Positions 57,247 through 61,943 of a DNA stretch of 64,000 nt are shown here, in pieces; positions within the stretch are counted from its first letter, which is position 1, and every line of letters starts with the position of its first letter. Location of the stretch: IMG/VR virus record IMGVR_UViG_3300027996_003878. One strand, 5' to 3'. The position numbers were made by a program, and so were the translations under genes. Origin of the DNA: a virus (Duplodnaviria > Caudoviricetes). The notes beneath the pieces were generated by a model. That model had not been told where the DNA came from and searched no databases. It saw nothing but the letters and a program-made list of their open reading frames with translations.

Positions 57247-57591
57247 CTAGATACTAAAAGACTCACCGCAGCCGCAAGAAGATCTGCTATCAGAATTAAC
57301 AAATTCAAACCCTTGATATTTTAAAGTTTTTTTCCAATTTAAAACAACACCATTTAAAAATAAAATACTTTTTTTATCACAGTAAACATAAAAATTTTTA
57401 CTATTAAATTGAAATTCAAAAACAATATCTTTATCTGTCGCACTTTTATCATCAAATTCAATGATATAACGAAAGCCGGAGCAGCCCCCACCCTTTACCC
57501 CGACTCTTAAAGCGCCCGAATTTCTTTCTTCCAGCTTTTTAGAAACCATTTCAATAGCTGATTCAGTTAAATTAAAAGTATACTCATTCAT
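57247..57591 (-). CDS. iscA: A-type Fe-S carrier protein (IscA/HesB family)
   Basis: LRVGVKGGGCSGFRY and CGCGESF. Confidence 0.92.
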   Translation of the reverse strand: MNEYTFNLTESAIEMVSKKLEERNSGALRVGVKGGGCSGFRYIIEFDDKSATDKDIVFEFQFNSKNFYVYCDKKSILFLNGVVLNWKKTLKYQGFEFVNSDSRSSCGCGESFSI

Positions 57592-58474
57592 TTTTGCTTT
57601 CTAGTAACCCTAACGCTTTTTGTTTGTTTTTATAATTATTAATCGCTGACTTAATTGCATCTTCAGCAAGAACTGAACAATGTATCTTGACTGGGGGTAA
57701 ATTCAACTCATCAACAATATCTATATTTTTAATGCTTTCAGCTTCTTGCAAGGTTTTACCTTTTAACCATTCAGTGACTAAGGAACTAGACGCTATAGCA
57801 GACCCGCATCCAAAAGTTTTATACTTGGCATCTTCAATTATGCCATCATCATTTACCTTAATCTGAAGCCTCATGACATCACCACAATTGTGAACAAATA
57901 TCCCCTTATGCTCGCTATCTGAAACTTTAGTTATAATAGAAAAATTTGATAAAGGCTCTACTGTTAAACAATAAACATCGCGCCTACCTGCCGGAATCAC
58001 TTCAATCACCTTAGGGCTAGAGCTGAATATTTCTTGCTTCAACATTCCCTTTTCAAAGCTTCGCGTAAATGGCATTAATCTTATATTTTTAGAATCAGCC
58101 GCTTTAACCCACCGGTTAGCTATATCACTTCTTGTCCTTATTAAATGATCCGTAGTACATTCAAGGAATGAGCCATTATCTAAAATCAACTTTACGCACT
58201 CAGCGCTCTCTTTTGTTAATCTGGGCAAATATCCATTAGAAATAACCACACCATCGTCATCTGAATAAGAATAAACAGAGGTATTTTTTTTTAATTCAGA
58301 TAATTGTTTTATTGAAATAACATCTTTATTTCGAGGCACTGCAACTAAAGTATCGCCAACAAGGCAAGCCGGAGAGCCAACCAAACCTGTACCAACATTA
58401 GAGTTATCTTTATCTAAAGTACCAACATTTCTTGGATTTTCAAAATGATCAATTACCTTTTTTGAATAGCTCAT
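57584..58474 (-). CDS. iscU: Fe-S scaffold IscU containing a 160-aa intein (136 aa after splicing)
   Basis: YSKKVIDHFENPRNVG...GSPA | intein | CGDVMRLQIKV...TFGCGSAIASSS...LPPVKIHCSVLAEDA. All three Cys ligands, the Asp and LPPVK are present. Confidence 0.95.
   Translation of the reverse strand: MSYSKKVIDHFENPRNVGTLDKDNSNVGTGLVGSPACLVGDTLVAVPRNKDVISIKQLSELKKNTSVYSYSDDDGVVISNGYLPRLTKESAECVKLILDNGSFLECTTDHLIRTRSDIANRWVKAADSKNIRLMPFTRSFEKGMLKQEIFSSSPKVIEVIPAGRRDVYCLTVEPLSNFSIITKVSDSEHKGIFVHNCGDVMRLQIKVNDDGIIEDAKYKTFGCGSAIASSSLVTEWLKGKTLQEAESIKNIDIVDELNLPPVKIHCSVLAEDAIKSAINNYKNKQKALGLLESKNE
57887..58366 (-). mobile_element. Class 1 mini-intein without a homing endonuclease
   Basis: Block A CLVGDTLV, block B CTTDH, block F DVYCLTV, block G FVHN followed by Cys+1. 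Confidence 0.93.
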
Positions 58475-58511
58475 TTGGATATATATTAAACTATTCCTTT
58501 AAATTTAATTA

Positions 58512-59414
58512 TTAAAACAACTGACGCGCACGCAAATGACGAAGTCTTGCTATAGCTGGATTGCGTGATGCAGCGACAGTGAGTGTCCCCAAGCCCTTGG
58601 GAGAGGGTTTCATATTAAACTTGATAAGTTTAAGCTTCTCAAAGTGATTCTGTAACTCAGATCCATACTGAGAGTTTAACATATCTGAAACACTTGGCGG
58701 ATTAAAGTTAATCCCATTATCAGTAATGGTAAACTCTCTGCCTCTCTCAATTAGTGCTTTACTCGATAGCGCATGAATTACAGCACCTTGAACAATAATA
58801 TCGTGAAATTGATCAATAATCTGCGTATGATCAAATCCAAAAAAAGTAAAATGAGGTATTTCATTAAACATAGTTAATGAATTAGCCAAAAAAGTGACTA
58901 ATGTATCTACAGTGTAGATATCACAGTCAACATAAATTTCATTGCCAAACTCATCTTTACTTTTTGACTTACCCGAGCTGTTTAGCCGAGCTTTCAAAGT
59001 CTTTAAAAGCTTATTTATGTTTTGGATAGCAATTTGACTATAATTAAAGCCAGGATCGTCTCCCAGATGAACATATCCATCTGTATTAATTTGTGGCATC
59101 TGAGTATTCTGTACAACGAAATTAAATGATCCTGACACATTGAATCCATTTAATACGCCGTCCCAAATATCATTCCAAACACCCAACGAGGAGTTTAGTC
59201 CTATAGTAAAATCATAACCATAAAGACCTTCACTTAATCTATAAATACCAATACTTGTAGCAGCTAGCGCTACATTTCCACTTGGCTGTACTATTGTAAT
59301 TGTAGGAAATGCATCAAGATCTTTCGGATTGCCGTCTGAGCCTTTAAACAATGCTCTTAACTGAACAGTTTCAGTATAACCTACAACTTCTCCACGTGAT
59401 CGAAATACACTCAT
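58512..59414 (-). CDS. Head-tail adaptor/neck-like protein with N-terminal Ig-like domain
   Basis: N-terminal beta-sandwich (RLSEGLYGYDF..GVWNDIW) and a helical C-terminal part; contains DGY. Confidence 0.45.
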   Translation of the reverse strand: MSVFRSRGEVVGYTETVQLRALFKGSDGNPKDLDAFPTITIVQPSGNVALAATSIGIYRLSEGLYGYDFTIGLNSSLGVWNDIWDGVLNGFNVSGSFNFVVQNTQMPQINTDGYVHLGDDPGFNYSQIAIQNINKLLKTLKARLNSSGKSKSKDEFGNEIYVDCDIYTVDTLVTFLANSLTMFNEIPHFTFFGFDHTQIIDQFHDIIVQGAVIHALSSKALIERGREFTITDNGINFNPPSVSDMLNSQYGSELQNHFEKLKLIKFNMKPSPKGLGTLTVAASRNPAIARLRHLRARQLF

Positions 59415-59479
59415 AAAAACCTAAAAAAAAATAAATAATTCAAAAATATATTGAATTAATCATAAATTCAATTTTAATA

Positions 59480-60265: not shown

Positions 60266-60505
60266 TCACTTTATTACAACAACATCAATGGCCTTGTCTC
60301 GCCCTTCGTTGTTTTGCCCAATGCTAAATTCAACTTCATCTTCAGCTTTTAACGACTTAAACCCTTCACACTTTATATCTGAAAAATGAACAAATATGTC
60401 ATCCAATTTATTACCATCAGCATCTGTTCTCGATATAAACCCATAGCCAGCCTTTACATTAAACCAAACTACCTTACCCTTATATGTAGCACTTTCTTCC
60501 GACAT
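60266..60505 (-). CDS. csp: Cold-shock domain protein
   Basis: KGKVVWFN..GYGFI (RNP1), DIFVHFSDI (RNP2), GFKSL. Confidence 0.92.
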   Translation of the reverse strand: MSEESATYKGKVVWFNVKAGYGFISRTDADGNKLDDIFVHFSDIKCEGFKSLKAEDEVEFSIGQNNEGRDKAIDVVVIK

Positions 60506-60559
60506 TATATCTCCATAAGAACAAATAAAATTATTTATACAATAATATTTATTTATGCG

Positions 60560-60841
60560 TTATTTTTCATCATTACCACCAATTATTGTATCATCAGCTC
60601 CCGGCAAAACAACTTGATCATTAACAACTAAAGGCCCACTGCACTGTAGGAACTTGTGCAACTCTACAAGACCCATAACAGATATATGCTTTCTTTCATT
60701 TTCATTTGTACATTTTTTTAATAACTTATCATATTTATTAAATATCATCTCAACATCATGACGGCAACCAAGCCGAGTGGCTGTATCTAAAACTCGCTTT
60801 CTTGATTCCGCTTCCGATCTTATCTTTTTATTTTTCTTCAT
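60560..60841 (-). CDS. Hypothetical protein (93 aa)
   Basis: Co-oriented, starts 8 nt after the iscS stop. Confidence 0.6.
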   Translation of the reverse strand: MKKNKKIRSEAESRKRVLDTATRLGCRHDVEMIFNKYDKLLKKCTNENERKHISVMGLVELHKFLQCSGPLVVNDQVVLPGADDTIIGGNDEK

Positions 60842-60848
60842 ATATTCC

Positions 60849-61943
60849 TTACTTTTTTAAATATATTTTAGACAATCTATCTACAAGATATAACGCATCA
60901 CTTGAGTCATACTGACCAAATGTAGATATTCTCAGGTAATCTTCGCCATTGCTTGGCCTTCCCAATTTTTGCATCAATGGGCTGCCTCCAGTGTACATGG
61001 AGCCACAAGCTGAGCCTAAACCAACATAAATTTTACTCTCAGATAACTTTAAAAGTAAGTCCATCCCTCCACCAGGAAACGGAGTGCGCACGAATGTTGT
61101 ATTTGGCGAGCGATTACTATCACTTCCTATGACTTCGAAACCAAGCTCTTTAAGGCTTTTCTCTAAAGTCATTTGAAAGTTACGCATTTTTTCCCTTCTA
61201 TATTCTAAAGTTGACAACGCCTCTTCTAAAGCAACCGCAGTGCCAACCACGCTGGCCACATCAGGAGTTCCGGGGCGATCAAGAAAATACCTACTACCAA
61301 GGCCAAAAGACCTCCATAAGTCTGTGTCTTTTATGTATATAAACCCAGCCATAAATCCTCCAAACTTATGGCCAGCAAAAACCCCAATATCTATATTATA
61401 ATCCGAAACTTTAAAAGGAACCTTGCCAATCGTTTGACTTAAATCAGATAACAAAAAGCTATCATTAAATTTTTCCAATGGTTGAATAATACCAGTTTCA
61501 TTTTGAACATGAATACAGCACACCCTTGAGCCCTTGGGTATGTTTTGATTTTTTAATACCCCATCTTTATCTACAGCCAACTCTCTTTTATTTCTGTAAT
61601 CCGCCATATAAGCGTCAAAAGACTGACTCATAGCAGGGTGTTCAGTGGGAGAGATAAATGCATTTTCCCAACAACCACTAGAATATCTTAAAATCTTACA
61701 TGCCCACTCGCAAGCCTGAGTGCAAGTTGATGTAATTACAATATTACTCGGACTTGCCGCGCCTATAGACTTTGCTATACGCGAACGAGCGTCCTCTAAC
61801 TTCATCGCAGCATCACGACCTATAGCAGAAGGAGAAAGGGGATGACCGTGACCAGCACGCGAAGAGATAAAGTCAGCATAGGCTGAAAGCGCTTTTTCAC
61901 TCAAAGGCACGTGAGCATTTGCATCTAAAAATAATTCTTTCAT
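60849..61943 (-). CDS. iscS: Group I cysteine desulfurase (IscS/NifS-like), divergent
   Basis: FLDANA, TEHPA, QNETG, PLP-lysine motif AGHKFGG, catalytic loop GSACGS, YLRIS. Confidence 0.88.
   Translation of the reverse strand: MKELFLDANAHVPLSEKALSAYADFISSRAGHGHPLSPSAIGRDAAMKLEDARSRIAKSIGAASPSNIVITSTCTQACEWACKILRYSSGCWENAFISPTEHPAMSQSFDAYMADYRNKRELAVDKDGVLKNQNIPKGSRVCCIHVQNETGIIQPLEKFNDSFLLSDLSQTIGKVPFKVSDYNIDIGVFAGHKFGGFMAGFIYIKDTDLWRSFGLGSRYFLDRPGTPDVASVVGTAVALEEALSTLEYRREKMRNFQMTLEKSLKELGFEVIGSDSNRSPNTTFVRTPFPGGGMDLLLKLSESKIYVGLGSACGSMYTGGSPLMQKLGRPSNGEDYLRISTFGQYDSSDALYLVDRLSKIYLKK

What the first reader, a model, noticed from the sequence alone, without database searches (positions are those of the whole stretch)
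57247..61943. Phage-encoded core Fe-S assembly kit (IscS, IscU, IscA) interleaved with virion genes
Seen: iscS, iscU and iscA in the bacterial operon order, but with five genes (including neck/Ig-like virion genes and csp) between iscS and iscU, and no iscR, hscBA or fdx in the window. Established: single iscA/sufA/iscU genes occur in marine phages; desulfurase, scaffold and carrier together form the minimal cluster-building chain. Inference: long-term domestication into the late operon, supplying Fe-S or sulfur to phage clients during morphogenesis.
Basis: partly seen in the sequence, partly recalled or inferred. Interest (0 to 1): 0.75.

Follow-up and report, generated by a model that had tools for sequence, protein, structure and literature searches.

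The report
Piecemeal phage iron-sulfur assembly gene trio
A widespread ~296 kb marine jumbo phage really does carry a cysteine desulfurase, an IscU scaffold (split by a mini-intein) and an IscA carrier among its virion genes, but they arrived as two separate insertions rather than as a captured bacterial operon, and no other phage we examined has all three.

Summary
The minus strand holds a class-V desulfurase (60849-61943), then five genes, then IscU (57584-58474) and IscA (57247-57591). No iscR, hscBA or fdx lies in the window. Ten independent assemblies are collinear at 99.97-100% identity, so the stretch is not chimeric.

Three corrections:
- The "iscS" is not an IscS orthologue. It belongs to a virus-only clade of short NifS/IscS-like desulfurases with all catalytic residues invariant.
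- IscU is interrupted by a canonical 160-aa mini-intein at ligand Cys37.
- The five intervening genes are the ancestral backbone, and the Fe-S genes are the inserts.

In related huge phages the backbone is p102-[desulfurase]-p93-Csp-p139-p113-p300-[variable slot]-p168-p535. The desulfurase was gained or lost once and co-inherited in one subclade. Its carriers lack IscU (0 of 34 contigs). The iscU(intein)-iscA-thioredoxin cassette sits in the variable slot only in this phage (0 of 63 relatives). IscU-bearing viral contigs lack any desulfurase (0 of 27).

The operon-like order is therefore coincidental, yet the trio is so far unique among phages. Joint function in Fe-S assembly is plausible but unproven, and no morphogenesis client was found. 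Earlier scan notes on other phage DNA describe iscU-iscA modules, all without a desulfurase.

The parts
62029..62337 (-). p102, a small conserved backbone gene. It is the upstream flank of the desulfurase insertion site.
   Evidence: Homologues lie directly upstream of the desulfurase in carrier (DES+) relatives. In relatives without the desulfurase (DES-) they lie directly upstream of p93.
60849..61943 (-). PLP-dependent cysteine desulfurase of 364 aa. It is group I (NifS/IscS-like) and belongs to a virus-specific clade.
   Evidence: Pfam Aminotran_5. The best PDB hits are the T. maritima NifS-like protein 1ECX and the 5WT2 chain deposited as 'cysteine desulfurase IscS'. The PLP-Lys motif (GHKFGG) and the Cys-loop (GSAC) align with both. 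H102, D167, Q170, K193, C313 and R338 are invariant in 44 clade members. An 83-row viral clade has SH-like support of 100.
60560..60841 (-). p93, a small backbone protein of unknown function (probably helical, by inspection only).
   Evidence: Present in both DES+ and DES- relatives. Its Cys residues are not conserved.
60266..60505 (-). Cold-shock domain protein (Csp).
   Evidence: PF00313, E 5e-21. Conserved in 66 of 68 relatives.
59843..60262 (-). p139, a backbone protein of unknown function.
   Evidence: Conserved synteny. No family hit.
59480..59821 (-). p113, an Ig-like beta-sandwich protein, probably virion-associated.
   Evidence: Atlas structure matches (TM 0.65-0.78 by query) to Ig-like domains in clusters where a minority to about half of members carry Phage_connect_1 or head-completion families, and to MG2 and filamin domains.
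58512..59414 (-). p300, with an N-terminal Ig-like domain and a helical domain. It is a virion-type protein, possibly a connector or adaptor, and forms the upstream flank of the variable slot.
   Evidence: AF2 model with pLDDT 73. Fold hits are only viral proteins, with weak matches to portal-adaptor and BppU structures. Weak PHROG head-tail connector hit, E 0.0046.
57584..58474 (-). IscU scaffold precursor of 296 aa: N-extein 58367-58474, intein 57887-58366, C-extein 57587-57886.
   Evidence: TIGR01999 scores above its cutoff. The exteins carry C37 (the +1 Cys), D39, C63, H105, C106 and LPPVK.
57887..58366 (-). 160-aa class-1 mini-intein with no endonuclease domain, inserted at GSPA|CGDVM (IscU Cys37).
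   Evidence: Begins with Cys1 (CLVGDTLV), has TxxH (TTDH) and ends in HN before Cys+1. TIGR01445 scores 29.6 against a cutoff of 24.5. It is 30% identical to RNR inteins of Acinetobacter phages. 58 of the top 120 homologues carry an intein at the same site.
57247..57591 (-). IscA / A-type Fe-S carrier of 114 aa. It overlaps the end of iscU by 8 nt.
   Evidence: TIGR00049 scores above its cutoff. Cys in GGGCSGF and in the C-terminal CGCGESF.
56632..57210 (-). TlpA/ResA-like thioredoxin-fold protein with a CYVC motif and an N-terminal hydrophobic signal followed by Cys. It is probably extracytoplasmic and is the third gene in the variable slot.
   Evidence: Pfam AhpC-TSA and Redoxin; weak NCBIfam ResA hit. 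Absent from all relatives' slots.
56067..56573 (-). p168, a backbone protein with an invariant HExxH motif. It is the downstream flank of the variable slot.
   Evidence: Present in 63 of 63 relatives downstream of p300. H82, H86 and H90 are invariant.

Best explanation
**What it is.** The three Fe-S genes form a composite, not a captured operon.

1. A virus-specific group-I cysteine desulfurase was inserted once between backbone genes p102 and p93. This happened in the head-neck module of a lineage of huge myoviruses. The enzyme has since been inherited vertically, with its PLP-Lys, catalytic Cys and substrate-binding residues intact, in genomes that encode no IscU or IscA.
2. In this marine phage alone, the hypervariable slot between p300 and p168 has been filled. 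In relatives that slot holds homing endonucleases and assorted accessory genes. Here it holds a two-gene iscU(intein)-iscA cassette of a type that circulates among large phages, plus a secreted thioredoxin-like gene.

**Inferred mechanism.**
- All genes are co-oriented and tightly packed with structural genes, so they are probably made late.
- The desulfurase forms a persulfide on Cys313.
- The IscU precursor must first splice, which restores Cys37.
- IscU then assembles [2Fe-2S] clusters and passes them to IscA and on to host or phage apoproteins.
- Electrons (Fdx) and chaperones (HscBA; the LPPVK motif is kept) would come from the host.

The separate origins are shown by the data. Cooperation of the three proteins is inferred.
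For: **Not chimeric**
- The identical IscU protein was found on 23 contigs read from ENA, JGI and Logan, and the 10 loci fetched all show the same gene order.
- Ten independent assemblies are 99.97-100% identical and collinear over window 47584-64000.
- The 6-kb stretch is held, at least in part, by seawater, marine or estuary runs from 19 studies.
- GC and GC3 of iscU, iscA and trx equal those of their neighbours.

**Desulfurase clade**
- 57 library representatives score E<1e-30 at 30-54% identity. The next hits are only about 30% identical.
- The viral clade has SH-like support of 100 and is separate from proteobacterial IscS.
- 37 IMG/VR loci carry it, many on contigs of 200-459 kb.
- Catalytic residues are invariant.

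**Backbone and insertions**
- Synteny tables for 37 and 80 relatives show the conserved backbone.
- The desulfurase is present in 22 of 68 relatives with enough upstream sequence. It maps as exactly one change on the p300 tree.
- Desulfurase and p300 identities correlate (Mantel r 0.89).
- Relatives without it have no Aminotran_5 anywhere (0 of 5 whole contigs).
- IscU and IscA are absent from 63 of 63 relatives' downstream flanks.
- 0 of 34 desulfurase-bearing contigs contain IscU, and 0 of the 5 tested for IscA contain it.
- The p300-p168 gap ranges from 215 bp to 3.6 kb. It holds LAGLIDADG endonucleases, a trypsin-like protease and a sulfotransferase in relatives.

**The cassette circulates**
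- The two contexts checked among the closest intein-bearing IscUs (54% and 51% identity) are each followed by IscA, on contigs with phage-like gene content. P0072 shows the same pairing.
- 33 of 80 IMG/VR IscU loci have IscA nearby and none has a desulfurase.
- 0 of 27 IscU-bearing viral contigs of 30 kb or more have Aminotran_5.

**Residues intact:**

**Possible clients in the lineage:** radical SAM genes occur in relatives, four in each of two complete desulfurase-bearing genomes.
Against: - No direct evidence shows that the desulfurase hands sulfur to this IscU.
- The enzyme lacks about the last 25-40 residues of E. coli IscS. From memory, that tail contributes to IscU binding.
- The enzyme has been kept for a long time in genomes without any phage IscU, so its selected function does not need one.
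- The rest of the ~296 kb genome could not be searched, so any fdx, hscB or Fe-S client genes there are unknown.
- No RNA data were obtained.
- The unrooted tree cannot tell a single gain from a single loss.
Confidence: 0.6

Rival explanations
1. The genes function independently and their proximity is coincidental. The viral-clade desulfurase serves some other sulfur-trafficking need with host partners, as it must in all IscU-less relatives. Examples are feeding host scaffolds, tRNA thiolation or cysteine turnover. The iscU-iscA cassette is a separate auxiliary unit that works with the host's own IscS, as in the many phages that carry IscU and IscA without a desulfurase.
For: - 0 of 34 desulfurase-bearing contigs have IscU.
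- 0 of 27 IscU-bearing viral contigs have a desulfurase.
- The two insertions are at different sites and of different ages.
- IscU keeps the LPPVK motif and is 75-82% identical to IscU of Pseudomonadota, Myxococcota and other phyla, so it is compatible with host ISC partners.
- The literature links host IscS partner competition (IscU versus TusA) to lambda tail-gene frameshifting (PMC3296357).
Against: - No alternative acceptor was found in five whole relatives' contigs: no MnmA, TusA, PAPS-reductase/DndC or rhodanese.
- This is the only phage seen with both gene sets, and they lie 2.4 kb apart on one strand, which is at least compatible with selection for joint use.
Confidence: 0.3
2. A bacterial iscS-iscU-iscA operon was captured whole, and five virion or csp genes were later inserted between iscS and iscU.
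For: The gene order matches iscS-iscU-iscA.
Against: - The five genes form the conserved backbone in more than 60 relatives, with or without the desulfurase.
- No relative has IscU or IscA.
- The desulfurase is only about 25% identical to proteobacterial IscS and belongs to a viral clade. The IscU exteins, by contrast, are 75-82% identical to cellular IscU.
- The two closest intein-bearing IscUs checked travel with IscA but without a desulfurase.
Confidence: 0.03
3. The genes are inactive relics, or the stretch is an assembly chimera with host DNA.
For: IscU is interrupted by 160 aa. The desulfurase scores far below the family cutoffs.
Against: - The interruption is a canonical intein: Cys1, TxxH, and HN before Cys+1.
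- All catalytic and ligand residues are intact and invariant across the clade.
- Ten collinear independent assemblies exist, and the stretch is found in runs of 19 studies.
- The composition matches the phage.
- Flanking genes on both sides are phage backbone genes.
Confidence: 0.04

Closest known systems
[quoted passage not shown] E. coli, Acinetobacter)
   Same: It has the same three-step logic: PLP desulfurase, then U-type scaffold, then A-type carrier. IscU is of the ISC type (TIGR01999 passed, LPPVK motif present). IscA has the three conserved Cys.
   Different: The phage has no IscR, HscBA or Fdx in the window. The desulfurase is not an IscS orthologue: it is about 25% identical, has 364 aa rather than 404, and lacks the C-terminal tail. 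The genes are not contiguous and have separate origins. IscU needs protein splicing.
Marine phage Fe-S auxiliary genes: IscU and A-type carriers (Nishimura et al. 2017, PMC5332604; HMO-2011-type phages, PMC9038755)
   Same: These are phage-borne IscU and IscA or ErpA in marine viruses, thought to boost Fe-S supply for host and viral clients such as radical SAM enzymes. The iscU-iscA pair here is one more such cassette.
   Different: Those reports, 80 IMG/VR IscU loci and 27 whole IscU-bearing viral contigs examined here show no desulfurase. This phage adds one. Its IscU also carries an intein.
Short NifS-type desulfurases: the Thermotoga maritima NifS-like protein (PDB 1ECX) and the 5WT2 chain, with the minimal NifS-NifU systems they are thought to belong to (the latter from memory)
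   Same: These are the best structural-sequence matches (E 4e-27 and 2e-24). They are group-I desulfurases with HK(F) PLP-Lys and SAC Cys-loop motifs. Per memory, they come from minimal systems that work without HscBA.
   Different: Identity is low (below about 30%). The phage enzyme belongs to a separate, virus-only clade and is not adjacent to its putative scaffold.
Mycobacterium tuberculosis SufB intein (an Fe-S scaffold interrupted by an intein)
   Same: An Fe-S assembly scaffold must splice before it can work. The intein sits at a functionally critical, conserved site.
   Different: The scaffold family differs (SufB versus IscU) and so does the intein lineage. Here the +1 nucleophile is itself a cluster ligand (Cys37). 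Conditional splicing is untested.

Membership tests
IscS (TIGR02006 / NF010611 equivalog) | Whole-protein score above the curated cutoff | tested here: not met
   TIGR02006 scores 71.2 bits against a cutoff of 643. NF010611 scores 78.3 against 548. NifS (TIGR03402) scores 123.8 against 530.
Group-I (NifS/IscS-like) PLP cysteine desulfurase | PLP-binding Lys; catalytic Cys in a SAC loop; the His, Asp and Gln contacting PLP; the Arg binding the substrate carboxylate | tested here: met
   GHKFGG and GSAC align to 1ECX and 5WT2. H102, D167, Q170, K193, C313 and R338 are invariant in 44 clade members.
Group-I (NifS/IscS-like) PLP cysteine desulfurase | Measured desulfurase activity (Cys to Ala plus persulfide) | not testable with these tools
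   Needs an enzyme assay.
IscS | C-terminal extension (about residues 375-404 of E. coli IscS), implicated in IscU binding according to my memory of the literature | tested here: not met
   The protein is 364 aa. The alignment to E. coli IscS (1P3W) covers query residues 4-330 and chain residues 5-345, so too little sequence remains for the tail.
IscU (TIGR01999) | Score above cutoff; ligands Cys37, Cys63 and Cys106 plus Asp39 and His105; LPPVK motif | tested here: met
   213.6 bits against 192.4. CGDVM, FGCGSA, LPPVKIHCS are visible in the exteins.
IscU (TIGR01999) | A contiguous scaffold polypeptide | tested here: not met
   A 160-aa intein separates residue 36 from Cys37, so function requires splicing.
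Class-1 intein | Cys or Ser at position 1, block B TxxH, a C-terminal (H)N, and a Cys/Ser/Thr +1 nucleophile | tested here: met
   CLVGDTLV..., TTDH...FVHN|C. TIGR01445 scores above its cutoff. Pfam Intein_splicing scores below its cutoff (20.4 against 35.8).
Class-1 intein | Homing endonuclease domain | tested here: not met
   The intein has 160 aa and no HNH or LAGLIDADG hit. Larger alleles at the same site (296-375 aa) carry HNH_3. It is therefore a mini-intein.
A-type carrier (IscA/SufA/ErpA; TIGR00049) | Score above the subfamily cutoff and the three conserved Cys (C-x(n)-C-G-C) | tested here: met
   89.1 bits against 58.8. The IscA equivalog TIGR02011 scores 79.7 against 150.6, which is not met, so the subtype is unresolved. 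GGGCSGF and CGCGESF are present.
Bacterial isc operon (as a unit) | Contiguous, co-inherited iscS-iscU-iscA, with iscR, hscBA and fdx | tested here: not met
   The genes occupy two separate insertion sites with different phyletic patterns. No iscR, hscBA or fdx is in the window.

The most novel reading that the evidence does not exclude
The virus-only desulfurase clade has a so far unknown, IscU-independent job in huge phages. It could be a sulfur donor for a phage-specific acceptor or modification made during late gene expression. This one marine phage has then rewired it, by capturing an intein-gated IscU plus IscA, into the first largely self-contained viral Fe-S assembly line. The availability of its scaffold would be controlled by protein splicing at the cluster-ligand cysteine.
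Probability: 0.15. Interest if true: 0.8.

Novelty: new variant of a known kind. Interest (0 to 1): 0.55.

Why it matters
Phage-borne IscU and IscA genes are known auxiliary genes, but the sulfur-mobilising step was thought to be left to the host. This work shows three things.

- A sizeable, vertically inherited, virus-specific clade of intact cysteine desulfurases sits at a fixed position in the virion-gene module of huge phages. PHROGs lists the matching family with unknown function, and I found no paper on it.
- One abundant marine phage combines this enzyme with a scaffold and a carrier. That gives a natural test case for whether a virus can run the core of Fe-S biogenesis itself.
- An operon-like gene order can arise by coincidence from two insertions, which is a caution for reading synteny in phage genomes.

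It also documents that intein-bearing IscU alleles, all inserted at Cys37, are common in metagenomes.

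Tried and rejected
- **Read laying:** Chimerism was tested through independent assemblies instead.
- **The look-up of sequencing runs:** no RNA holder was listed, so expression is untested.
- **Complex prediction, desulfurase dimer plus p93:** returned 'no answer', which is neither support nor evidence against.
- **Whole genome:** none is held for the window. The ENA and JGI contigs behind my loci cannot be searched whole. Fe-S clients, fdx and hscB in the other ~230 kb of this phage therefore remain unknown.
- **Exact-peptide scan of IMG/VR for the window's desulfurase:** nothing found, so this phage itself is not in that collection.
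- **IscU donor:** C-extein matches are 69-83% identical across Pseudomonadota, Myxococcota, Bdellovibrionota, Nitrospinota and others. A 98-column tree gave no supported placement, and the nearest row is a Bacteriovoracaceae MAG. The donor and host are unresolved.
- **The listing of cluster members:** gave almost no names.
- **p93 as a sulfur acceptor:** rejected as a dedicated partner. Its Cys residues are not conserved, and it also occurs in relatives without the desulfurase.
- **The 535-aa protein's Cys4 site as the client:** it occurs in 8 of 8 relatives without the desulfurase and in only 10 of 21 with it, so there is no link.
- **Known sulfur acceptors in five whole relatives (MnmA, TusA, PAPS-reductase/DndC, rhodanese):** none found.
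- **Promoter and terminator scan, and a candidate GCATAAT motif:** nothing informative.
- **INPHARED records named 'Acinetobacter phage MD-2021a':** these carry iscS-iscU-iscA, but one of the two records, checked in detail, is bacterial chromosome with a full isc operon, so they were not counted as phage precedents.

Full report
**1. What is at the coordinates**

All genes in 54-64 kb lie on the minus strand. In order of transcription they are:

| Gene | Coordinates | Size and note |
|---|---|---|
| fibre-like protein | – | 525 aa |
| p102 | 62029-62337 | – |
| class-V aminotransferase | 60849-61943 | 364 aa |
| p93 | 60560-60841 | 93 aa |
| cold-shock protein | 60266-60505 | 79 aa |
| p139 | 59843-60262 | 139 aa |
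| p113 | 59480-59821 | 113 aa |
| p300 | 58512-59414 | 300 aa |
| NifU_N protein (IscU) | 57584-58474 | 296 aa |
| Fe-S_biosyn protein (IscA) | 57247-57591 | 114 aa, overlaps iscU by 8 nt |
| redoxin-fold protein | 56632-57210 | 192 aa |
| p168 | 56067-56573 | 168 aa |
| p535 | 54371-55978 | 535 aa |
| p1232 | 50541-54239 | 1232 aa |

Family scans gave the following:
- The 296-aa protein passes the IscU equivalog (TIGR01999, 213.6 bits against 192.4).
- The 114-aa protein passes the A-type carrier subfamily (TIGR00049).
- The 364-aa protein hits NifS, IscS and DndA models only far below their cutoffs.

The rest of the window is a myovirus tail and baseplate module followed by a glycosyltransferase cluster. 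It includes baseplate J, a sheath-initiator hit and a weak sheath C-terminal hit. A gene with a weak capsid-family (PF25209) hit lies about 5 kb upstream of the desulfurase.

No IscR, HscB, HscA or Fdx is in the window.

**2. It is real phage DNA, not a chimera**

- The exact IscU protein was found on 23 contigs read from ENA, JGI and Logan assemblies, including two of about 296 kb. The 10 loci fetched all show the same gene order.
- Ten of these loci align to window 47584-64000 without gaps, at 99.97-100% identity.
- The 6-kb stretch is held, at least in part, by seawater, marine or estuary runs from 19 studies, dated 2016-2024.
- GC and GC3 of iscU, iscA and trx equal those of the structural genes around them.
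- The phage is an abundant, uncultured marine jumbo myovirus.

**3. Are the proteins intact?**

*Desulfurase.* Its best solved relatives are the T. maritima NifS-like protein 1ECX and the 5WT2 chain deposited as 'cysteine desulfurase IscS'. The PLP-lysine motif (GHKFGG) and the catalytic Cys loop (GSAC) align with both. In an alignment of 44 clade members, H102, D167, Q170, K193, C313 and R338 are invariant. These correspond to E. coli IscS H104, D180, Q183, K206, C328 and R354.

*IscU.* Its exteins keep Cys37, Asp39, Cys63, His105, Cys106 and LPPVK. They are separated by a 160-aa insert (57887-58366). The insert begins CLVGDTLV, contains TTDH and ends FVHN just before the Cys of CGDVM. This is a canonical class-1 mini-intein whose +1 nucleophile is cluster ligand Cys37. 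Other first-stage notes recorded the intein, but this finding did not. It matters here because the scaffold cannot work before splicing.

*Other alleles.* 58 of the 120 best homologues carry an intein at the same site. Sizes run from 144 to 375 aa, and the large ones have an HNH domain.

*IscA.* It has its three Cys.

**4. Where the genes come from**

*The desulfurase clade.* An exhaustive HMMER search found a discrete family. There are 57 representatives with E<1e-30, at 30-54% identity and mostly 350-370 aa. After them the scores fall to generic NifS/IscS hits of about 30% identity. In a tree these rows form a clade of 83 with support of 100, apart from proteobacterial IscS. A profile scan of IMG/VR found 37 loci, many on contigs of 200-459 kb.

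*The backbone.* tblastn of the window's proteins on these loci showed a conserved string:

p102 - desulfurase - p93 - Csp - p139 - p113 - p300 - [variable] - p168 - p535 - p1232

None of these loci has IscU, IscA or the thioredoxin.

*Searching from p300 instead.* This removes the bias of selecting on the desulfurase. It returned 80 relatives:
- Csp is present in 66 of 68 and p168 in 63 of 63.
- The desulfurase is present in only 22 of 68.
- IscU and IscA are present in 0 of 63.
- Where the desulfurase is missing, p102 abuts p93.

*One event.* On the p300 tree, desulfurase presence needs exactly one change, across a branch with SH-aLRT 98. The window nests among the carriers. Pairwise identities of desulfurase and p300 are correlated (Mantel r 0.89, 0 of 2000 permutations). 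This fits co-inheritance. Five whole contigs of non-carriers have no class-V aminotransferase anywhere.

*No IscU in carriers.* None of 34 carrier contigs has a NifU_N domain anywhere, and five of these are at least 90% complete. The five that were also tested for IscA have none.

*The variable slot.* The p300-p168 interval ranges from 215 bp to 3.6 kb in relatives. It holds LAGLIDADG endonucleases, a trypsin-like protease, a sulfotransferase and unknowns. In the window this slot holds iscU(intein)-iscA-trx.

*The cassette elsewhere.* The two contexts checked among the closest intein-bearing IscUs (54% and 51% identity) are each followed directly by an IscA. They sit on contigs with phage-like gene content: RNase T, RtcB, a SUV3-like helicase and an RNA ligase. 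A 504-aa allele sits beside IscA and thyX.

*IscU-bearing viruses in general.* Among the 80 best IscU loci of IMG/VR, out of at least 597, 33 have IscA nearby. None has a desulfurase or hscBA/fdx within 10 kb. None of 27 such contigs of 30 kb or more has a class-V aminotransferase anywhere.

*INPHARED.* It holds no bona fide phage with the trio. The only records with iscS-iscU-iscA are named 'Acinetobacter phage MD-2021a'; one of the two, checked in detail, is bacterial chromosome with a full isc operon.

*Conclusion.* The five intervening genes are the ancestral backbone. The Fe-S genes are two separate insertions, one old and one specific to this phage. The resemblance to the bacterial operon order is coincidental.

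**5. The five intervening genes**

- p113 is an Ig-like beta-sandwich. It resembles domains in Atlas clusters where a minority to about half of members carry head-tail connector or head-completion families.
- p300 has an Ig-like N-terminal domain and a helical C-terminal domain (AF2 pLDDT 73). It matches only viral proteins, with weak hits to portal-adaptor and BppU structures and a weak connector PHROG.
- The Ig-like label is therefore supported. The 'neck' label is plausible but unproven.
- p93 and p139 have no assignable family.
- p93 has no conserved Cys and also occurs in relatives without the desulfurase. It is not a dedicated desulfurase partner.

**6. How it probably works**

*Shown:* intact catalytic and ligand residues, a canonical intein, co-orientation and tight packing with structural genes.

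*Inferred:*
- The genes are expressed late.
- The desulfurase makes a persulfide.
- Spliced IscU builds [2Fe-2S] clusters and IscA passes them on.
- The host supplies ferredoxin and HscBA (LPPVK is kept).

Fe-S clients exist in the lineage. Complete relatives with the desulfurase encode four radical SAM proteins each, against one or two in those without it. The sample is small and phylogenetically confounded.

The main rival is that the two units work independently. The desulfurase clade has been maintained without any phage IscU, and phage IscU and IscA normally rely on host IscS. No alternative acceptor (MnmA, TusA, DndC-like, rhodanese) was found in five whole relatives.

The idea that the genes serve virion metallation is not supported. 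The Cys4 site of p535 occurs in 8 of 8 relatives without the desulfurase and in only 10 of 21 with it. Its three C-terminal HxH motifs are invariant. By analogy with T4 and P2 fibre tips they probably bind metal directly, not Fe-S clusters. That analogy comes from the literature cited in PMC5175280.

The thioredoxin-fold protein has an N-terminal signal-like segment. It is probably extracytoplasmic and so unlikely to be part of cytoplasmic cluster assembly.

**7. Comparison with what is known, and novelty**

- Marine phage IscU and A-type carrier genes are established auxiliary genes (PMC5332604; PMC9038755). PMC5332604 does not contain the word desulfurase.
- Earlier notes of this scan on other phage DNA describe iscU-rhodanese-iscA, iscU-fdx-iscA and an HscB-containing block. 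Three of those four notes state that no desulfurase is in the window.
- I found no paper on a phage desulfurase clade or on IscU inteins.
- The finding is a new variant of a known kind. It is a known AMG theme extended by a virus-specific desulfurase, in a combination so far seen in one phage species only.
- The donor of IscU is unresolved.

**8. Limits**

- The remaining ~230 kb of this phage could not be searched.
- No expression data were obtained.
- The complex prediction gave no answer.
- The trees are unrooted, so gain cannot be told from loss.

Noticed in passing
window 57887-58366; proteins P0002-P0120: Intein-bearing IscU alleles are common in metagenomes. 58 of the 120 best homologues have an intein at the identical GxP[AS]|C...N|CGD site. 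They run from mini-inteins (144-172 aa) to versions of 296-375 aa with HNH endonuclease domains. Most end in KN rather than HN. I found no paper describing an IscU intein.
   Followed up: partly
window 56067-56573 (p168): A small backbone protein has invariant H82, H86, E87 and H90 (HExxH). It is present in 63 of 63 relatives just downstream of the variable slot, and could be a minimal zinc metalloprotease of the head-neck module.
   Followed up: partly
window 54371-55978 (p535): Three C-terminal HxH motifs are invariant across relatives, as in metal-binding fibre or spike tips. The CxC...CxxC site is replaced by SHGN or SHGT in 11 of 21 desulfurase-bearing relatives, but is intact in all 8 relatives without the desulfurase.
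   Followed up: yes
L019-L053, the interval between p300 and p168 homologues: This is a hypervariable slot of 215 bp to 3.6 kb in related huge phages. It is filled with LAGLIDADG endonucleases with HTH domains, a trypsin-like protease, a sulfotransferase and unknown genes, so it looks like a hotspot for accessory-gene capture.
   Followed up: partly
window 56632-57210: A TlpA/ResA-like thioredoxin-fold protein has a CYVC motif and an N-terminal hydrophobic segment followed by Cys. It is probably a secreted or lipid-anchored thiol-disulfide oxidoreductase. It is unique to this phage's slot and its role is unknown.
   Followed up: no
window 1580-11688: A cluster of eight glycosyltransferase genes (families 1, 2, 4, 10 and 11) lies next to the baseplate and fibre genes. 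It suggests glycosylation of virion proteins or of the host surface.
   Followed up: no
window 11815-14757: A 980-aa structural-module protein has a dockerin type I / EF-hand-like calcium-binding repeat at residues 589-657.
   Followed up: no
L014 (CAKLQH020000011.1) and CAKLQF020000009.1 in the phage collection: Records named 'Acinetobacter phage MD-2021a' appear to be bacterial chromosomal contigs. The one examined (L014) has ppiD, hupB and a full iscRSUA-hscBA-fdx operon. Such records are false 'phage with an isc operon' precedents.
   Followed up: yes
L064-L067: On contigs with phage-like gene content, the iscU(intein)-iscA cassette lies near a DUF1289 protein, an RNase T-like exonuclease and a SUV3-like helicase. 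On L066 and L067 a protein with a faint CCG-domain hit lies immediately upstream. The DUF1289 and CCG proteins are Cys-rich families (from memory) and could be Fe-S clients.
   Followed up: no
G004 and G005 (IMG/VR contigs of 435 and 459 kb); L056-L063: Complete desulfurase-bearing relatives each encode four divergent radical SAM proteins that are only generically MoaA- or viperin-like. Relatives without the desulfurase encode one or two.
   Followed up: partly
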